Of a stretch of DNA of 44,209 nucleotides, positions 15,595 through 22,898 are shown in pieces. Below the pieces are notes generated by a model, which was not told the DNA's origin, made no database searches, and worked only from the letters and a program-made list of their open reading frames with translations. The stretch lies in the UHGV virus genome UHGV-0377591. One strand, written 5' to 3'. The stretch is from a virus. Both the position numbers and the translations under genes were made by a program. Every line of letters begins with the position of its first letter. The stretch's first letter is position 1.

Positions 15595-17931
15595 TTAATA
15601 CCCCGGCTGGTTTCGTGTAGCCCGGCGGGACTTGGAGATTGCACTGTTGCTGTCTTGTAACGCCGCCGATACTGTTTCGCTGATGATAACACGTAACCGC
15701 CCTTCGTCGTCACGCTCTGTAACGGCGGAATCAACTCGTCCGGTGGTGTTGTTGACGATTGTCACGCTGTCACCGCCTGACTTGTTGCCGTTCTCGCCCA
15801 TAATCTGGCGCATCTGTTCCGCGGTACGTACGCGTGACGCCCCCGCAGGCATAATAACTTCCGGCTTGTTACGTTCTGCAATGGTGGATAGCTGCCCGGC
15901 AGCTAAGTTACCACCCTGCTCACGGGCCGAACGAATCTTGCTGATGTTAGCGAGACCTGCCGCTACCGCTGTAGCTGCTGCTATCGGCCCAAGTATCCAA
16001 CCAACAAAAGGAATCGCGGACGCAGATTTATAAGCCTCGATGGCGGATGTGTATGTGGCGATGGTGGCCTGGGCGATAGCAAACGCTTTATAAGCGGTAG
16101 ACGCTTCGCCAAGCGACGATTTAATATTATCCGCCATCATGCCGAAAGCGTTACCTGTAGCGTTGGCGCGTTTTAACGCGTACTGGTCGTTTATAGCATT
16201 AACCGCAGCCTGGTACTGTTCCTCGTTAATAAGATTCTGTTCACGGTATCGGTCCGCAACGTCCAGTTTTTGTTGTTCCTGAATTTCCAGAAGCTCAAGC
16301 TCGGTGGCATTCTGACCCATAATCTGAGCCATGAAGTCTTCGCCTTTCTGGTTCTTCTCCTGTCGTTCTTTCTCCCGCTTGGCGAGTTCTTCCTGGCGAG
16401 CGGTGTCCGCCTCCAACATAATCTGAGTTTTAGCGTTCTCGTATTGCTGGTCGCTAAGAAGCTGATTGCCGTAAAACTCCTGTAGCTTGGTTAGCTGCTG
16501 TTCCTGGTTGGCTTCTATTTTCTGGAATACGTCATCATTGAGATGAATCGACTGGTAGTAGAAATCCTCAGCGGCTTTCTTCTGGCGCTCGAACGCATCC
16601 GCAGCTTTCTTGGCGGCTTTTGCACTAGCGTTATCATCTTCTGACCCGCCACCGGCACCAGTTACCTTAAACTTACTAAGCCCTTCTTCCTTAGCGGCTT
16701 CTTTGTCGATGTCATATGCCGCGCGTTTAAGCGCGACGATATTTTGCTGAGCCTCCACCTGTTCGCGGAAACTTTTACGGGTCAGGTCCGCAACATCGCG
16801 CTGAGTATCCAGTGCCATCCCTAACTGGAAGTTAATGTTTTTTGCTACGTCTACAGATTCCCCTGGTGTGAAGGCAGCTTTCACCAACCGGCCAGCGTCC
16901 TGTGCCCCTTTAACCATATCTTCAAAGAATCGCTCCATCGCGGTAAATTCTTCCGCTATGAAATCGAGCGCATCGGCAGCTGATTCCGCGATGGTTGTCG
17001 CCGTTTGTTCGCCACTGTCGGTGATACTTTTACTGCTAAAATCCCAAAGTTCATTCAGCCCGTTTATTGCGTCGCCTACGAAACCAAATGCCGCGTCGAA
17101 CGACATCTCTATCGCGCTGCCCACTTCTGACGCGATGTCACCCCACATACGCATCTCAGCGGTGAGTTCGCCGGATGCTACCTGTGCGTTAAGTTCCTGG
17201 ATTAAATCATCGATGTACCGGATAGGTTCCGCAAGAGCACCAACATCAAGGCTGGTGGCCAGTGTCATTTTTAACTGCGACCATGAGTCGCTGGCACTGG
17301 CGATGGCCCCGTTAAGTGTGTTGGCCTGGTCCGCCATAGCCCCCGCGAAGTTTACGTTACCAATGTTGAGCAGGTATTGCTCGATGTCGGCAGCGCTCTT
17401 CTTAACTACCGTAGTGGTGCCCTGGAATGTAAATTCAACATCGTTTTTGTTCTGCTTGGCCTTGATACCAAATTCTTTAAGGCGCTCAAATTCAAATGTA
17501 CTAGCGTCCGCAACGGCCTCAATCATCTGATTAAGGTCTTTACCCATAGCAGCGGCAGTGTTGCCATAGGAGCGCAACGCTTCTTCTGAGGGGGTAAGGC
17601 CGAGAGCCACCAGTTTACGGAATCCCTCTACCGCCTGTTCAAGGCCATACGGAGTGTCGCGCGCGAAGTCTTGCAGGATGCTTAACGCCTGTCTTGCCCC
17701 CTGCGTGCTTCCGGTTAGCGTTTTCAGGCTGGCGGACATCTTGTCCAGTTGCCGTTGGGAGTCTACCAGTTCCTGTGCGGCCTTGTACGCTGTCGCGGCG
17801 ATAATTGAAGCGAGTCCAGCTACGGCTGCCCCCGCTACTTTTGCCGACTTGGAGAGATTATCAAGACGGTCCGATGTAGCTTTCGCGCCTTGCTCTGATA
17901 CCTTTACAACTAAACTAGCTACATCAGCCAT
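15595..17931 (-). CDS. Tail tape measure protein, 778 aa
   Basis: Long, Ala/Gln/Glu-rich, helical, low-complexity protein after the chaperone genes; Gly-rich hydrophobic segment near the C-terminus. Confidence 0.85.
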   Translation of the reverse strand: MADVASLVVKVSEQGAKATSDRLDNLSKSAKVAGAAVAGLASIIAATAYKAAQELVDSQRQLDKMSASLKTLTGSTQGARQALSILQDFARDTPYGLEQAVEGFRKLVALGLTPSEEALRSYGNTAAAMGKDLNQMIEAVADASTFEFERLKEFGIKAKQNKNDVEFTFQGTTTVVKKSAADIEQYLLNIGNVNFAGAMADQANTLNGAIASASDSWSQLKMTLATSLDVGALAEPIRYIDDLIQELNAQVASGELTAEMRMWGDIASEVGSAIEMSFDAAFGFVGDAINGLNELWDFSSKSITDSGEQTATTIAESAADALDFIAEEFTAMERFFEDMVKGAQDAGRLVKAAFTPGESVDVAKNINFQLGMALDTQRDVADLTRKSFREQVEAQQNIVALKRAAYDIDKEAAKEEGLSKFKVTGAGGGSEDDNASAKAAKKAADAFERQKKAAEDFYYQSIHLNDDVFQKIEANQEQQLTKLQEFYGNQLLSDQQYENAKTQIMLEADTARQEELAKREKERQEKNQKGEDFMAQIMGQNATELELLEIQEQQKLDVADRYREQNLINEEQYQAAVNAINDQYALKRANATGNAFGMMADNIKSSLGEASTAYKAFAIAQATIATYTSAIEAYKSASAIPFVGWILGPIAAATAVAAGLANISKIRSAREQGGNLAAGQLSTIAERNKPEVIMPAGASRVRTAEQMRQIMGENGNKSGGDSVTIVNNTTGRVDSAVTERDDEGRLRVIISETVSAALQDSNSAISKSRRATRNQPGY

Positions 17932-18283
17932 CGTTTCTACCCTCGAAAATAGCGTCTAAGCTCATGATGATGTCAGATTCGAACATGCCTATATTCTGGC
18001 CTGAAACGGTGCTGTATGCCACTAAATCCGACCATCTTAACTGTTCGCGCGGGTACATCTTGATGCCATCATCGTCCACTCGGCGGGTGAATTTGATTTC
18101 CCTGTACTTCTCGAAGGTGGTTAATAGCTCAGGGGGGCATTCCGGCCCTGTGTCCTGCGTTGCTTCCGGCGCGTCTTGCATAACCCCCATAGCAATTAGC
18201 GCGGCTTTATGCCCGTCGGCGATACTGTCAAACTCCCGCCGTTTGTGGCGGGTTATGAAGTTCCAACGGGCAAACTGGAGCAA
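17924..18283 (-). CDS. Tail assembly chaperone T-frame segment, expected as a G-T fusion by -1 frameshift
   Basis: The -1 frame is open from 18316 across the stop of the G-like ORF; candidate shifty sequence CAG-GAA-AAG-TAG (complement of 18289-18300). Confidence 0.5.
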   Translation of the reverse strand: MLQFARWNFITRHKRREFDSIADGHKAALIAMGVMQDAPEATQDTGPECPPELLTTFEKYREIKFTRRVDDDGIKMYPREQLRWSDLVAYSTVSGQNIGMFESDIIMSLDAIFEGRNDG

Positions 18284-18288
18284 CGCGT

Positions 18289-18705
18289 CTACTTTTCCTG
18301 CAATTGGTGAAGCTGTTCATTGTGGAAAACAACAACGTGTTCAGCGAGTCGTTTATATTGTGAGAAAAGAGTATTCAGGTTCTCTTTATTAAATTCATCG
18401 TCGAGACTCCAACCGTTAACCAGTTCAAGCGCTAACTGGCGGTTAAGGTCCGTTGCGGCGTCTTCCATCTTGATGTTGTATTCCGAGAAATCTTTCAGTT
18501 CCTCGCATTTATCGCGAAGCGGTTTCAATTTACCTAATGCCGCGCGGTACGCAAGTGTAAACGCCCTCATAGCTTTAACAGCAACGTCTGCCTCCGGTGA
18601 AACAACGTTCAGCCACTCCCCTGAATCGGTGCCGTCTTTCAGTGGTATCGGCATACGGGCGCCTTTTTCTGCCTCAGCTTCGTAATAAAAATCAGAAAGT
18701 TTCAT
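18289..18705 (-). CDS. Tail assembly chaperone (G-like)
   Basis: ORF track; immediately upstream of the tape measure gene; ribosome-binding site AAAGGA. Confidence 0.65.
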   Translation of the reverse strand: MKLSDFYYEAEAEKGARMPIPLKDGTDSGEWLNVVSPEADVAVKAMRAFTLAYRAALGKLKPLRDKCEELKDFSEYNIKMEDAATDLNRQLALELVNGWSLDDEFNKENLNTLFSQYKRLAEHVVVFHNEQLHQLQEK

Positions 18706-18813
18706 TCTTTAATCCTTTGGTTAAGAGGTTACAGGTTAATGGTAAATGCGCCAGACGGGAACCACCCGCTTTTCGTGTGCGACACTAGGCGCAAAATTAT
18801 TCTATCACATTAC

Positions 18814-18842
18814 TTGCGCACCCCAACATAATAGGATACTAT
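18814..18842 (+). promoter_or_regulatory. Class II promoter with operator palindrome overlapping the -10
   Basis: TTGCGC (18814-18819), 17-bp spacer, TACTAT (18837-18842); AATAG-GATA-CTATT at 18830-18843. Confidence 0.5.
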
Positions 18843-18883
18843 TCACTTACACCAACAATGTTAACTCAAACAGGATCTACACC

Positions 18884-19075
18884 ATGACAGGTATTACTAT
18901 GTTCTTCTTAATCATTATCGTTTTAGTTTATTTTATCCCATTTCTCGTGGCGCATATGCGCAACCATAAAGCTAAATTAGCGATATTCATGGCTAATCTG
19001 TTTCTCGGTTGGGTTCTGCTGCCGTGGGTATTTATTTTAATCTGGGCGTGCAACTCGAATGTCAAAGAGAAGTGA
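18884..19075 (+). CDS. Small two-transmembrane protein, 63 aa (candidate superinfection-immunity or holin-like)
   Basis: MTGITMFFLIIIVLVYFIPFLVAHMRNHKAKLAIFMANLFLGWVLLPWVFILIWACN; AGGA ribosome-binding site; first gene of the rightward insert. Confidence 0.55.
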   Translation: MTGITMFFLIIIVLVYFIPFLVAHMRNHKAKLAIFMANLFLGWVLLPWVFILIWACNSNVKEK

Positions 19076-19114
19076 GCTAGTATAGGACAAATCCTAAACA
19101 CGAGGAAGTAAAGC

Positions 19115-20245
19115 ATGGCTCATAAGAAAATAACCGACGAACAGTTACGGGAAGAATTGAACGCCGGAACAAAAATTATTGATATCGCACGTAAGTATGG
19201 AATCTCAGACCGCGTTATCCGTATCCGTAAAGCGAAGCTGGCTAAGAAAGGTGTAGGCCACGGTCGCGACGTTAGTCACCTTGTGCCTGACGGCTACAAG
19301 ATTAAAGGTACGTCGTCTCTGGTGGACGAGTTCGGCAACACTAAACTGCAATGGGTTAAGACCGACACTGACGCAGAACGTCAGGTCGAGTTGATGAAAG
19401 CTGTAATCGAGGGCATGAAGTCAGAGATTACGCCGATTGCGCCTGTTAAAGCCGTTCGCGCCAAACGTGACGATAAACTACTTAATCTTTACACTGTATC
19501 TGATTTCCATCTCGGTATGCTGGCCTGGGCCGACGAGAGCGGCGACGACTGGGACATGAAGATTGCAGAAGACCTGTTCTCCCGATGGTTCGATGCGGCG
19601 TTTCAGAAAGCACCAGATGCAGGAACTGGGGTTATTAACCTGCTGGGTGACTTCGCGCACTTCGATAGTCTGGATGCGGTTACGCCAGCGAGTGGTCATG
19701 TTCTTGATGCGGACACTCGTTATCAGAAACTGGTCCGCTACATGATTCGTATGGTACGCCGTGTTGTCGGTATGGCGCTGGTTAAGCATAAAAATGTTCG
19801 CTTGCTTATCGTGCAAGGGAATCACGACGAAAGTGGCATGATTTGGTTAGCTGAGATGTTTAGTACGCTGTACGACAATGAGCCGCGTGTGTTCGTAGAT
19901 ACGTCGCCGGATGTTTACAAGATGGTTCAACACGGCAAAACGACGCTGTTCTTTACACACGGCCATAAATGCAGGTTTGAGGTGGTCGAACCGATTATGA
20001 TTGCCAAGTTCCGCAAAGCGTTCGGCGAGAGCGTTTACAGCTACGCCCACGTAGGCCACCTGCACCATCAGAAGATTGTAGAAAGCCGTAACATGATTGT
20101 TGAGCAACACCGCACCTTAGCGGCTAAAGACGCCTACGCCTCGCGCGGCGGATGGATGTCGGGCCGTAGTGCAAATGTAATTACTTATAGCGCCGAATAT
20201 GGCGAGGTCGCACGTTTAACTATTTCACCGGAGATGCTGGGATGA
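19115..20245 (+). CDS. Calcineurin-like (Mre11/SbcD-type) metallophosphoesterase with N-terminal HTH-like domain, 376 aa
   Basis: Motifs VSDFHLG, LLGDFAHFD, VQGNHDE, FTHGHK, HVGHLHH; N-terminal TKIIDIARKYGISDRVIRIRK. Confidence 0.75.
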   Translation: MAHKKITDEQLREELNAGTKIIDIARKYGISDRVIRIRKAKLAKKGVGHGRDVSHLVPDGYKIKGTSSLVDEFGNTKLQWVKTDTDAERQVELMKAVIEGMKSEITPIAPVKAVRAKRDDKLLNLYTVSDFHLGMLAWADESGDDWDMKIAEDLFSRWFDAAFQKAPDAGTGVINLLGDFAHFDSLDAVTPASGHVLDADTRYQKLVRYMIRMVRRVVGMALVKHKNVRLLIVQGNHDESGMIWLAEMFSTLYDNEPRVFVDTSPDVYKMVQHGKTTLFFTHGHKCRFEVVEPIMIAKFRKAFGESVYSYAHVGHLHHQKIVESRNMIVEQHRTLAAKDAYASRGGWMSGRSANVITYSAEYGEVARLTISPEMLG

Positions 20246-20730
20246 AAGATATTGTGATTTTCGATTTAGACGGGACATTGGCGGACGGTACTCATCGTTT
20301 ACACCTGCTACCGAAAGATAACTACAACGAAACATGGGCGTGGAAGCCATTTAACATGGCGTGCAAAGATGATTCGCCGATATATGACAACATCCACTTG
20401 TGCAACACGCTGTGACATACCGGGATGACCATAATCATCCTTACCGGGCGAAGCGACGACGCCGAGGAAGAAACTCGTGAGTGGTTACGTAAAAACAATG
20501 TCAAGTTCGACGTTCTGTTAATGCGCAGCAAGCACGACAACAGAAAAGACATCGTAATTAAAGAAGAGGTGTTACGTGCTATCGGGCTGGAGAGAATATT
20601 GTGTGCGTTCGACGACTCTCCAGCGGTAATAAAGCATTTCCGCGGACTCGGTATAACCACTCACGCGGTTACTGAATACGACTGTAACGGGAACTCTACA
20701 CACTTAAAATCACACGGGAGCGATAAATAA
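20242..20730 (+). pseudogene. HAD-superfamily phosphatase (polynucleotide 3'-phosphatase-like) interrupted by an in-frame TGA at 20413-20415
   Basis: Motif I VIFDLDGTLA lies before the stop; motifs ILTGRSDD, HDNRKD and AFDDS lie after it in the same frame. By recollection resembles the phosphatase domain of T4 polynucleotide kinase. Confidence 0.6.
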
Positions 20731-21284
20731 TGGCTAAGGTAATTATTCTTAATGGCCCTGCGGGCTGCGGGAAAGACACACTTGCTATGGCGCTGGTAGA
20801 AATGGGCTTTGCGAAAGGAACTACCAGTTTCAAGAATCCAATGTTCAATATCGCTCTGGCGGCGTTAGGCCCGGATGCTTACCACGAGTTTCTCGACGGC
20901 TACGACGACCGGGCGCGGAAAGAAAAGCCAGAAGGCTTCCTTAATGGCTTGTCGCGGCGTCAGTTCATGATTGCTATATCTGAGCAATTCATTAAACCGG
21001 TACTTGGTAGTGATTATTTCGGTAAGTATCTTGCTGGAAACTTGCCAGACGGCGACGAAGTTTTTGTAGTGTCCGATGGCGGGTTCGCCAGCGAAGTAGC
21101 CCCTATCGTCGCCGCGGGTCATGATGTAAGAATCGTCCGCTTGCACCGAGAAGGCTATACGTTTGAGGGGGACAGCCGTGGTTATCTGTATGGCGTTGAT
21201 GGTGTAAAAGATTGCGACACCTACATCATACCGGGGGACATTAAATCGAACGTTATAGACATTGCTTTAAAATTAGGTTTGTAA
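20730..21284 (+). CDS. P-loop kinase (dNMP kinase-like or polynucleotide 5'-kinase-like), 184 aa
   Basis: Walker A ILNGPAGCGKDT; ATGA-type overlap with the HAD gene stop. Confidence 0.65.
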   Translation: MAKVIILNGPAGCGKDTLAMALVEMGFAKGTTSFKNPMFNIALAALGPDAYHEFLDGYDDRARKEKPEGFLNGLSRRQFMIAISEQFIKPVLGSDYFGKYLAGNLPDGDEVFVVSDGGFASEVAPIVAAGHDVRIVRLHREGYTFEGDSRGYLYGVDGVKDCDTYIIPGDIKSNVIDIALKLGL

Positions 21285-21312: not shown

Positions 21313-22479
21313 TTATGCGTAACTAATACGTTGAATTACGATAGACGACTGGTATTGGTTGCCTGTGGACTGCCCTTCTATACTTTGGGTAATTGATTCC
21401 GGGCCGGATATTTCTGGTGTAACCGCCGTAAGCTCTGCACGTTTCAAACTGAAAGACATAGCCCCGTTTACCCCCGCCAGAATAGAGTTAATCTCTACCT
21501 GCTGTTCGTTGATAAACTTCTGAATCATAGCCATGTCATACAGCTTGCCGGAGATGGAGAAGGTGTTAGCCGCGCGGCTACGTTCCACAAACGCTACGTT
21601 AGTGTTACCAAGTTCGAACTGCGCGGATGCACTGTTGTCGTTGGTGATGGTCAGGCTGTCACACCGCAACGGAGTAGAACCGTCGAACACAGAGACGTCA
21701 ACGGAGGAGAACGGCTCGTCACCAAACGTAACAGAAGAGAAATCAGAGCCGGACGGCGGCGTAGCGAGAATCTCCTGGCTGCGCCCGATGAACGGGAAGC
21801 TGCCCGTTACCATCGCGTTAACGGCCTGCTCCACGGTAAAACCGGAAACTTCCACACCTTTGGTCAGTGTGTACGCGTCGGCCCCACCGCACTGGCCTTT
21901 GTACCAGGTGAGGATAGAGAACGTCTTACACGCGTTACCAGTTTCCAGTTTATCGCCGGTTTTAGCGTCGGTTGTTACGGTCTCGGTGGTCAGAGTATGT
22001 TGGATCCCAGCACCGGTGACAACAGTCGCACTTACCTCGGTTACGATAAACGGTTTAGCGTTATCGCCCGTTAAGCCAGTAAACGCAATCAGGTCGCCTA
22101 CTTCAACGCCATCCGTAATGAAGCTACCGTCGGCACGAGTGAACGTCTTGCCCACCGGTGCGACGGTAATCGACAGCCCCGACAGAGAAACACCGGATTG
22201 CCACGTAGAGCCTAAAGCCCCCGCCAGCCAGTCGTCCTGGCTTTTCGAGCTAAGCTCGATGGCGTATTCTCCGCTAACCTGTTTGTTACCGGTGCGGATG
22301 GACGTAGTTTCACGGCTGCCGTCCAGTTCATTGGAGGTCAGCGTGTCGCGGGTAATAGCGGGAACGCCACCTGTGTTGCGCAACGGCGACCAGACCGGGT
22401 TGGTCGGTGTTACGCCCGGGGTCACTTCCGCCACATAGAATTGCGCGGTATTCGCGCCCTTAAAAGGAGTTGTAGCCAT
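21313..22479 (-). CDS. Major tail (tube) protein
   Basis: Start moved to ATG 22479 (AGAGG upstream); large protein followed by a strong terminator; position before the chaperones. Confidence 0.7.
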   Translation of the reverse strand: MATTPFKGANTAQFYVAEVTPGVTPTNPVWSPLRNTGGVPAITRDTLTSNELDGSRETTSIRTGNKQVSGEYAIELSSKSQDDWLAGALGSTWQSGVSLSGLSITVAPVGKTFTRADGSFITDGVEVGDLIAFTGLTGDNAKPFIVTEVSATVVTGAGIQHTLTTETVTTDAKTGDKLETGNACKTFSILTWYKGQCGGADAYTLTKGVEVSGFTVEQAVNAMVTGSFPFIGRSQEILATPPSGSDFSSVTFGDEPFSSVDVSVFDGSTPLRCDSLTITNDNSASAQFELGNTNVAFVERSRAANTFSISGKLYDMAMIQKFINEQQVEINSILAGVNGAMSFSLKRAELTAVTPEISGPESITQSIEGQSTGNQYQSSIVIQRISYA

Positions 22480-22481
22480 AT

Positions 22482-22898
22482 TCACAGCCTCTTGGTGAAT
22501 GCAATAAAGTTAATTGACAATGGTTTTTTGGCCCATCCGTTTTCTACAATCAGCGGCCCCAGGCTAACCGATTGAACCTCGGCGCAGATGTCGTTACGCG
22601 AAAATGACTTACCTGCTTTAAACGCCGTGTTAAGTAAGTCTGCCATTTTATTGATTGGCGCGCTACCTTTCACCGATGCGTAGTTAATATCTACCTGATA
22701 GACGCCCGCACGTTGTTCCGTGAAGAACAAATCAGCCTGTTCCGTATCCGCCAGCAACATGTAACTTGCCAGATACGGCGTATCGGTTGACGTCGGCGCA
22801 TCGATGTTTTCAAGCGCAACCTTGATGCCGTTGGCGGTTCCGAAGGCTACCAGCGGTACATCAAACGCTTTTGTTAAGTCCTCAAAGTAGCCCATCAT
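22482..22898 (-). CDS. Tail terminator / tail completion protein (by position)
   Basis: ORF track; ATGA coupling on both sides. Confidence 0.45.
   Translation of the reverse strand: MMGYFEDLTKAFDVPLVAFGTANGIKVALENIDAPTSTDTPYLASYMLLADTEQADLFFTEQRAGVYQVDINYASVKGSAPINKMADLLNTAFKAGKSFSRNDICAEVQSVSLGPLIVENGWAKKPLSINFIAFTKRL

What the first reader, a model, noticed from the sequence alone, without database searches (positions are those of the whole stretch)
18283..18316. Candidate programmed -1 frameshift joining the two tail chaperone ORFs
The G-like ORF (18289..18705) ends …CAG-GAA-AAG-TAG on the minus strand. The -1 frame is open from 18316 through the T-like ORF (17924..18283) and reads …GGA-AAA-GTA-GAC…, so a -1 slip on GGAAAAG just before the stop would give a G-T fusion (…LQEK then VDALLQFARW…). 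This matches the conserved chaperone frameshift of long-tailed phages, but the heptamer is not a canonical XXXYYYZ site.
Basis: partly seen in the sequence, partly recalled or inferred. Interest (0 to 1): 0.4.

Follow-up and report, generated by a model that had tools for sequence, protein, structure and literature searches.

The report
Tail chaperone G-T frameshift, non-canonical site
This is the standard programmed -1 ribosomal frameshift that long-tailed phages use to make a minor fused tail-assembly chaperone; here it uses a slightly off-consensus slip site (G_GAA_AAG next to the stop codon), and public records of near-identical phages already annotate it.

Summary
The 138-aa chaperone ORF (18289..18705, minus strand) ends CAG-GAA-AAG-TAG. 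The -1 frame is open from 18316 and runs through the T ORF into the tape-measure gene.

The window is a Kagunavirus-type E. coli siphophage. G matches Pfam Phage_TAC_4 and T matches Phage_TAC_18.

Among 31 distinct junction types (T identity down to 40%):
- AAAGTA is invariant.
- G ends NNA_AAG + stop in 30 of 31.
- Some relatives carry canonical A_AAA_AAG or G_GGA_AAG at the same position.
- The shortest 0/-1 overlap is 10 nt, which pins the site.
- 28 of 31 lineages have no start codon for T before codon 11.
- The first 30 T-frame codons after the site evolve as coding sequence.

The base before GAA is always G, so G_GAA_AAG acts as a near-cognate heptamer. No stimulatory RNA structure is conserved across the family. 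The window's own clade has an unusually stable hairpin starting 5 nt after the slip site, but it has no covariation support.

The exact 260-aa fusion (…LQEK|VDALL…, 29.9 kDa) is already deposited (QNO11663.1; K1G ADA82267.1; Shemara). I found no experimental proof.

Verdict: real, well supported by comparison, and ordinary.

The parts
18289..18705 (-). G: tail assembly chaperone, 138 aa, 15.9 kDa, the 0-frame product
   Evidence: ORF list. Pfam PF08748 Phage_TAC_4, E 2.5e-8. phrog_15027 positions 1-138, E 4.8e-50.
18292..18298 (-). Slip site G_GAA_AAG. The core tetramer A_AAG is 18295..18292. tRNA-Lys re-pairs from AAG to AAA, and tRNA-Glu from GAA to GGA with a central G.U pair.
   Evidence: Sequence. 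AAAG is invariant in 31 junction types. The codon before AAG always ends in A (GAA 17, GCA 6, AAA 6, GGA 1, TCA 1). The base before GAA is G in 17/17 types.
18289..18291 (-). 0-frame stop TAG immediately 3' of the slip site; a possible 'shifty stop' contributor
   Evidence: A stop directly follows AAG in 30 of 31 junction types (TAG 24, TAA 6, never TGA). Its role in slippage is inferred, not shown.
18292..18316 (-). 0/-1 overlap window in this phage (25 nt); the shift must happen here
   Evidence: The -1 frame TGA lies at 18319..18317. In relatives the overlap shrinks to 16 nt and 10 nt and still contains NNA_AAG.
17924..18292 (-). T segment (122 aa + stop), read in the -1 frame; the C-terminal half of the G-T fusion
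   Evidence: Pfam PF23812 Phage_TAC_18, E 1.3e-18. phrog_15027 positions 139-259. T-frame coding signature from codon 2 onward.
18200..18286 (-). Predicted extended hairpin starting 5 nt after the slip site. It includes a 10-bp helix (18272..18263 with 18219..18210) and an apical hairpin (18252..18235). It is a candidate clade-specific stimulator.
   Evidence: MFE -44.1 kcal/mol, z -3.8. The 100 nt from 18288 give -42.1 kcal/mol, z -4.6, the most extreme of 322 same-strand windows. No covariation. Not conserved across the family.
15595..17931 (-). Tape measure protein gene; its ATG overlaps the T stop by 8 nt
   Evidence: ORF list. Weak Pfam TMP_3 hit at 35.5 bits, below the 41-bit cutoff. Annotated as tape measure protein in Schulenburg and fFiEco03.
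21313..22485 (-). Tail tube gene (context); separated from G by an opposite-strand gene block
   Evidence: Pfam PF18906 Phage_tube_2, E 1.6e-38.

Best explanation
A small fraction of ribosomes translating the chaperone gene G slip back one nucleotide on G_GAA_AAG (18298..18292), the last two sense codons of G. tRNA-Lys moves from AAG to AAA, and tRNA-Glu moves from GAA to GGA with a tolerated central G.U pair. The next codon read is GUA (Val) instead of the UAG stop. Translation then continues through the T frame to 17924 and gives a 260-aa G-T fusion (...LQEK-VDALLQFARW...). By analogy with lambda gpG/gpGT, abundant G coats the tape-measure protein, while the rare G-T links it through its T domain to the tail tube subunit.

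Shown here: the frames, the family identity, the position of the shift, and the fact that T cannot be made on its own in most relatives.

Inferred: that the shift is ribosomal and low-level, the exact tRNA choreography (tandem slip during translocation, or Lys-only slip with the stop codon in the A site), and any stimulation by the adjacent stop or by the clade-specific hairpin 5 nt downstream.
For: 1. Frames and junction are as described.
2. G matches Phage_TAC_4 and T matches Phage_TAC_18, directly upstream of the tape-measure gene. phrog_15027 is a 259-position profile that covers G and then T.
3. In 31 distinct junction types from 121 loci (T identity 100 to 40%), AAAGTA is invariant and G ends NNA_AAG + stop in 30 of 31. 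The codon before AAG encodes five different amino acids but always ends in A, against a 22% background.
4. Relatives carry canonical A_AAA_AAG (L087, L114-L121) or G_GGA_AAG (L038/L107) at the same position.
5. The overlap shrinks to 10 nt in L114 and still contains the motif.
6. 28 of 31 lineages have no ATG/GTG/TTG in the T frame before codon 11 (usually 32-35, up to 109), and 30 of 31 have none in the overlap.
7. T-frame codons 2-31 show third-position entropy 1.36 against 0.63 and 0.69, a synonymous fraction of 0.40 against 0.10 and 0.085 in the other frames, and no stop in any of 31 sequences.
8. The base before GAA is G in 17/17 types across six preceding amino acids, and A precedes AAA in 6/6. 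It varies before GCA, where re-pairing is impossible.
9. A_AA.G is the most shift-prone tetramer in E. coli (PMC4066793), and E. coli has a single tRNA-Lys for AAA and AAG (PMC5009743). The window encodes no tRNA.
10. Independent annotators deposited exactly this fusion.
Against: There is no experimental evidence for the fusion in this phage group in the searchable literature. In reporter assays, tetramers without a stimulator are barely above background, about 0.15% (PMC4066793). No stimulator is conserved across the family. The window's hairpin has no covariation support. In the window's own clade a TTG at T codon 4, with AGGA 12 nt upstream, could allow some independent initiation.
Confidence: 0.85

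Rival explanations
1. T is made as a separate 13.6 kDa protein by its own initiation, or by termination-reinitiation, at the TTG at 18283..18281. The AGGA inside the putative slip site would serve as a Shine-Dalgarno sequence, and there would be no frameshift.
For: A TTG sits at T codon 4 in the window's clade and in Jerseyvirus, with AGGA 12 nt upstream. Many GenBank records annotate T as a separate CDS, and Schulenburg even marks an RBS there.
Against: The TTG is CTG in every other lineage. 28 of 31 junction types have no canonical start before codon 11, and using the first available start would remove the conserved VxALYxFARW...KFDSIADGH block. Annotated starts disagree between records: TTG, CTG, an internal TTG, and position 863. 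This model does not explain the invariance of A_AAG, the third-position A of the preceding codon, or the G before GAA. The 12-nt SD spacing is long.
Confidence: 0.07
2. A frameshift occurs, but purely by single-tRNA (Lys) slippage on A_AAG while UAG sits unread in the A site (a 'shifty stop'). The preceding GAA and the downstream hairpin would be irrelevant.
For: A_AAG + stop is the only unit common to all lineages. GCA and TCA lineages cannot re-pair a P-site tRNA. A stop follows AAG directly in 30 of 31 types. The K1-type and Eta lineages have no downstream structure, z about 0. Single-tRNA A_AAG shifting is established for IS1222 and B. subtilis cdd (PMC5009743).
Against: The base before GAA is G in 17/17 junction types, across codons for Q, L, K, M, A and S. 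This points to selection for re-pairing of a second tRNA. The review states that a slow A site matters more for +1 than for -1 shifting. L085 keeps A_AAG but has its stop one codon later.
Confidence: 0.3
3. The fusion arises by transcriptional slippage of RNA polymerase on the A run rather than by ribosomal slippage.
For: There is an A run at the site, and relatives have six A in a row.
Against: The window has only four A. From general knowledge, productive RNA polymerase slippage in E. coli needs runs of roughly 8-9 or more. The requirement for G after the A run (AAG, never AAA, in 31 of 31 types) fits tRNA-Lys slippage, not polymerase slippage.
Confidence: 0.01

Closest known systems
Phage lambda gpG/gpGT programmed -1 frameshift (Levin 1993; Xu, Hendrix and Duda 2004, 2013, 2014; as summarised in PMC5009743)
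   Same: Two overlapping chaperone ORFs lie directly upstream of the tape-measure gene. The second ORF is in the -1 frame and has no conserved start. The slip is on ...A_AAG near the end of G. The result is an abundant short product plus a rare fusion. One relative (L038/L107) carries lambda's exact G_GGA_AAG.
   Different: The heptamer here is G_GAA_AAG, where P-site re-pairing needs a central G.U pair. The slip site abuts the G stop codon. The protein families differ (Phage_TAC_4 / Phage_TAC_18 rather than lambda's G and T families). The tail tube gene is not adjacent, because an opposite-strand gene block intervenes.
Annotated 'tail assembly chaperone frameshift product' of phages K1G (ADA82267.1/YP_009168804.1), fFiEco03/fPoEco01 (QNO11663.1, QNO11812.1) and Shemara (QEA10354.1)
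   Same: This is the same feature. My predicted fusions match these deposited proteins residue for residue, and the fFiEco03 protein is identical to the window's predicted fusion.
   Different: None in sequence. These are annotations without published experimental support, and sister records (Schulenburg, Shashou, EC3-1, Ent2, Eta) annotate T as a separate gene.
NNA_AAG hexanucleotide / A_AAG tetranucleotide -1 sites (IS1222 G_CGA_AAG; B. subtilis cdd A_CGA_AAG; Licznar 2003; Sharma 2014, PMC4066793)
   Same: The core is tRNA-Lys(UUU) slipping from AAG to AAA. The third base of the 5' codon must be A. The GCA_AAG and TCA_AAG lineages of this family are of this type.
   Different: The known cases use CGA (an inosine-reading tRNA) and depend on a downstream structure or an upstream SD. 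Here the 5' codon is GAA, no stimulator is conserved, and a stop codon follows directly.
E. coli dnaX A_AAA_AAG frameshift
   Same: The A-site event is the same (Lys AAG to AAA). Distant relatives of this locus (L087, L114-L121) carry exactly A_AAA_AAG at the homologous position.
   Different: dnaX has a strong upstream SD and a downstream stem-loop and shifts at about 50-80%. No such conserved elements are found here, and a low rate is expected. The Rfam search found no match to any family at gathering score.

Membership tests
Tail assembly chaperone G/GT -1 frameshift of long-tailed phages (Xu et al. 2004) | Two ORFs located between the major tail (tube) gene and the tape-measure gene | tested here: met
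   G and T lie directly upstream of the tape-measure gene, and the T stop overlaps the TMP ATG. The tube gene (21313..22485) is upstream on the same strand but is separated by a 2.5-kb opposite-strand block, so the order is kept and contiguity is not.
Tail assembly chaperone G/GT -1 frameshift of long-tailed phages (Xu et al. 2004) | The second ORF is in the -1 frame, overlaps the 3' end of the first, and lacks its own conserved start | tested here: met
   The -1 relation holds in all 121 loci analysed. There is no start before codon 11 in 28 of 31 junction types and none in the overlap in 30 of 31.
Tail assembly chaperone G/GT -1 frameshift of long-tailed phages (Xu et al. 2004) | Canonical X_XXY_YYZ slippery heptamer in the overlap | tested here: not met
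   The window has G_GAA_AAG. The feature is met at the homologous position in relatives, with A_AAA_AAG and G_GGA_AAG. The window's site is one base away from lambda's heptamer and contains the A_AAG tetramer.
Tail assembly chaperone G/GT -1 frameshift of long-tailed phages (Xu et al. 2004) | Proteins belong to tail assembly chaperone families | tested here: met
   PF08748 (E 2.5e-8) and PF23812 (E 1.3e-18), both above their curated cut-offs. phrog_15027 and phrog_313 are both 'tail assembly chaperone'.
Tail assembly chaperone G/GT -1 frameshift of long-tailed phages (Xu et al. 2004) | Both G and G-T are produced, at a high G to G-T ratio, and both are needed for tail assembly | not testable with these tools
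   This needs western blot or mass spectrometry plus genetics. No such data were found in the literature searches.
A_AAG (NNA_AAG) single-tRNA -1 shift sites in bacteria with one tRNA-Lys | A_AAG in the 0 frame, with the 5' codon ending in A | tested here: met
   GAA_AAG in the window, and 31 of 31 junction types are NNA_AAG.
A_AAG (NNA_AAG) single-tRNA -1 shift sites in bacteria with one tRNA-Lys | The host decodes AAA and AAG with a single tRNA-Lys(mnm5s2UUU) | tested here: inconclusive
   The closest relatives are E. coli phages, and E. coli has one tRNA-Lys (PMC5009743). The window encodes no tRNA. The host of this particular sequence is inferred, not given.
A_AAG (NNA_AAG) single-tRNA -1 shift sites in bacteria with one tRNA-Lys | A stimulatory element: downstream structure at a 5-9 nt spacing, or an upstream SD at 10-14 nt | tested here: inconclusive
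   The window has an unusually stable hairpin starting 5 nt downstream (z -4.6, top of 322 windows). It shows no covariation, no family-wide conservation, and z about 0 in the K1-type and Eta lineages. SD-like strings 10-12 nt upstream appear only sporadically, in fmb-p1, Eta and L069.

The most novel reading that the evidence does not exclude
The near-universal placement of the stop codon directly after A_AAG (30 of 31 junction types, TAG or TAA, never TGA) is functional. This phage group would then use a stop-codon-coupled -1 frameshift, in which slow release-factor decoding, rather than an RNA structure, supplies the pause. The G to G-T ratio would then track host RF1/RF2 activity. That would be a distinct and simpler sub-type of tail-chaperone frameshift signal that works without a canonical heptamer.
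Probability: 0.3. Interest if true: 0.45.

Novelty: already known. Interest (0 to 1): 0.25.

Why it matters
For genome annotation, the T ORF of Kagunavirus, Jerseyvirus and Cornellvirus phages should be annotated as the C-terminal part of a joined G-T CDS with the junction ...K|V..., not as a stand-alone 'hypothetical protein' with arbitrary TTG or CTG starts.

For recoding biology, the family offers a natural allelic series at one homologous position: A_AAA_AAG, G_GGA_AAG, G_GAA_AAG, N_GCA_AAG and G_TCA_AAG, almost always followed directly by a stop. This could be used to measure how much P-site re-pairing and an adjacent stop contribute to low-level -1 shifting in enterobacteria. Otherwise the feature is a textbook mechanism.

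Tried and rejected
1. Family-wide stimulatory structure. RNAalifold on 6 and on 31 representatives gave -2.4 kcal/mol and zero pairs respectively. Rejected.
2. Covariation test of the window's hairpin within its clade plus Jerseyvirus. There were no double changes, with two wobble-compatible and several disruptive single changes. Inconclusive.
3. Conserved upstream Shine-Dalgarno at 10-14 nt. This is only sporadic by inspection. Rejected as a family feature.
4. Rfam scan for known frameshift elements. Only two sub-threshold snoRNA chance hits appeared.
5. Promoter or terminator between G and T. None on the minus strand.
6. Independent start for T. Rejected for most lineages.
7. Transcriptional slippage. 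Rejected on A-run length and the invariant G.
8. PMID 25663216 (Anany 2015, cited in the Schulenburg record) is not held in the library, so I could not read what it says about the frameshift.
9. PMC6787027 (64 dnaX variants) and PMC10861913 contain no measurement of G_GAA_AAG. The Shemara announcement does not discuss its frameshift call.
10. I did not run the large protein-database searches or structure prediction, because the exact-sequence look-up already settled prior annotation and the comparative DNA evidence was sufficient.

Full report
**What is there**

On the minus strand the 138-codon ORF 18289..18705 ends ...CAC CAA TTG CAG GAA AAG TAG. The frame one base back has a TGA at 18319..18317 and is then open. 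It reads ...GGA AAA GTA GAC GCG TTG CTC CAG..., which translates as ...GKVDALLQFARW..., and runs to a TGA at 17926..17924. That TGA overlaps the ATG (17931..17929) of the 778-aa tape-measure ORF. A shift after AAG gives a 260-aa, 29.9 kDa protein. G alone is 15.9 kDa.

**Identity**

The region is 97.9% identical to Escherichia phage Schulenburg, and 369 phage records match it, mostly Kagunavirus and Jerseyvirus of the Guernseyvirinae.

- G matches Pfam Phage_TAC_4 (E 2.5e-8).
- The -1 frame product matches Phage_TAC_18 (E 1.3e-18).
- The downstream ORF is the tape measure.
- A Phage_tube_2 protein lies upstream at 21313..22485.
- PHROG 15027, 'tail assembly chaperone', is a 259-position profile. 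G fills positions 1-138 and T fills 139-259.

**Comparative test of the site**

I collected 36 and then 78 loci from IMG/VR, plus nine annotated GenBank regions. In all 121 loci that could be analysed, T is in the -1 frame of G.

The loci collapse to 31 distinct junction types, with T identity to the window running from 100% down to 40%. Across these:

- The six bases AAAGTA have zero entropy, while the neighbouring third-codon positions vary.
- G ends NNA_AAG followed directly by a stop in 30 of 31 types (TAG 24, TAA 6). The exception, L085, keeps GCA_AAG with the stop one codon later.
- The codon before AAG is GAA (17), GCA (6), AAA (6), GGA (1) or TCA (1). These are five different amino acids, and the codon always ends in A. 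Only 22% of codons in these genes end in A, and only 43% of Lys codons are AAG.
- At the homologous position some relatives carry fully canonical heptamers: A_AAA_AAG (L087, L114-L121) and lambda's G_GGA_AAG (L038/L107).
- The distance between the last -1-frame stop and the 0-frame stop varies from 205 nt down to 16 nt and 10 nt (L114). The only sequence always inside it is NNA_AAG.

**T cannot be made on its own**

In 28 of 31 junction types the first ATG/GTG/TTG in the T frame is at codon 11 or later. It is usually at codon 32-35, and at 51, 58 and 109 in three lineages. In 30 of 31 types there is no start codon inside the overlap.

The TTG at 18283 that defines the 'T ORF' in the window is a Leu codon. 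It is CTG in every lineage outside the window's clade and Jerseyvirus. Depositors have chosen TTG, CTG, an internal TTG, or a start about 170 nt downstream for the same gene.

The 30 T-frame codons immediately after the slip site nevertheless evolve as coding sequence in that frame only:

- Third-position entropy is 1.36, against 0.63 and 0.69 at positions 1 and 2.
- 40% of differing codon pairs are synonymous, against 10% and 8.5% in the other two frames.
- No stop occurs in the T frame in any of 31 sequences, against 19 and 28 sequences with stops in the other frames.

The protein alignment is conserved from the first codon after the shift: V-x-A-L-x-x-[FY]-A.

**Mechanism**

In E. coli, A_AA.G is by far the most shift-prone tetramer. 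It reaches 5.6% with a strong pseudoknot but stays near the 0.15% background without one (PMC4066793). E. coli has one tRNA-Lys for both AAA and AAG. A_AAG shifting with a non-re-pairing 5' codon is used by IS1222 and occurs in B. subtilis cdd (PMC5009743). The window encodes no tRNA.

The GCA_AAG and TCA_AAG lineages can therefore only use Lys-only slippage.

The first base of the heptamer tells a further story. It is G before GAA in 17/17 junction types, and the preceding codons encode Q, L, K, M, A and S. It is A before AAA in 6/6 and G before GGA in 1/1. Before GCA it is C, G, C, C or A. So wherever a second tRNA could re-pair, the base that lets it do so is kept.

G_GAA_AAG is thus best read as a selected near-cognate heptamer, with tRNA-Glu moving from GAA to GGA with a central G.U pair. 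Whether the shift happens during translocation of the Glu/Lys pair, or after it with UAG waiting in the A site, cannot be decided from sequence. Both routes give the same protein.

**Stimulators**

- No structure is conserved across the family. RNAalifold gives -2.4 kcal/mol on six lineages and zero pairs on 31.
- No Rfam family matches.
- SD-like strings 10-12 nt upstream are sporadic.
- In the window itself, the 100 nt that follow the stop fold at -42.1 kcal/mol. The z-score is -4.6, the most extreme of 322 same-strand windows across the structural genes. The predicted extended hairpin starts 5 nt after the slip site.
- Related lineages are heterogeneous. Mean z is -1.4, and 13 of 31 fall below -2, but the K1-type and Serratia Eta lineages are at about 0.
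- Within the window's clade plus Jerseyvirus there are only ten distinct sequences and no compensatory changes.

The hairpin is a reasonable clade-specific candidate stimulator and nothing more. The adjacent stop is the only conserved candidate. The review notes that a slow A site matters more for +1 than for -1 shifting, but it also cites a -1 case that depends on a nearby stop.

**Prior knowledge**

The fusions I predicted for fFiEco03 (identical to the window's fusion), for the K1-type phage fTaEco01, and for Shemara are present residue for residue in NCBI. The fTaEco01 fusion is identical to the deposited K1G protein. The accessions are QNO11663.1/YP_010748927.1, ADA82267.1/YP_009168804.1 (phage K1G) and QEA10354.1. 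The corresponding records carry joined CDSs labelled 'frameshift product'.

Other records leave T as a separate hypothetical gene. The Shashou genome note states that there is 'no canonical slippery sequence' (PMC6776780).

I found no paper reporting detection of the fusion protein.

**Verdict**

This is a textbook G/G-T tail chaperone frameshift that has already been annotated for this very protein. The modest points of interest are:

- the off-consensus heptamer;
- the clean allelic series of slip sites at one homologous position;
- the nearly invariant stop codon directly after the site, which could be tested as a stop-coupled -1 signal.

Noticed in passing
window 18746..21284 (+ strand): A block of opposite-strand genes sits between the tail tube gene (21313..22485, -) and G. 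It contains a superinfection immunity protein (18746..19075), a calcineurin-like phosphoesterase (19115..20245) and three small ORFs up to 21284. This breaks the usual tube-G-T-tape-measure contiguity. The same layout is annotated in Schulenburg and fFiEco03.
   Followed up: partly
window 17924..17931 (-): The T stop codon (TGA 17926..17924) overlaps the tape-measure ATG (17931..17929) within ATGGCTGA. This suggests translational coupling of the tape measure to whatever ribosomes finish the T frame, or to an SD within the end of T.
   Followed up: no
window 18189..18288 (-): This is the most stable 100-nt RNA fold among 322 windows of the structural-gene strand (-42.1 kcal/mol, z -4.6). It lies entirely inside T coding sequence and is absent in the K1-type and Eta lineages. 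It may be a clade-specific frameshift stimulator or may be unrelated.
   Followed up: yes
L085 (IMGVR_UViG_2162886012_000023), junction near 1201: This is the only junction type where the stop does not follow AAG directly (GCA AAG TTA TAG). It is a natural test case for whether the adjacent stop matters.
   Followed up: no
L038 / L107 (IMGVR_UViG_2974654489_000001), junction: A single A-to-G change relative to its K1-type sisters converts G_GAA_AAG into lambda's canonical G_GGA_AAG, which changes Glu to Gly in G. The two heptamers therefore appear interchangeable in nature.
   Followed up: partly
31 junction types: The stop codon after the slip site is TAG in 24 types and TAA in 6, and never TGA. 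TGA would still give Val (GTG) in the -1 frame. TAG is the rarest E. coli stop (general knowledge). The bias may reflect the T-frame residue that follows (Asp/Glu against Lys), or a preference for RF1-only termination.
   Followed up: no
window, helicase gene (not located): The genome note for the close relative Shashou reports an intein in the helicase (PMC6776780). I did not check whether the window carries one.
   Followed up: no
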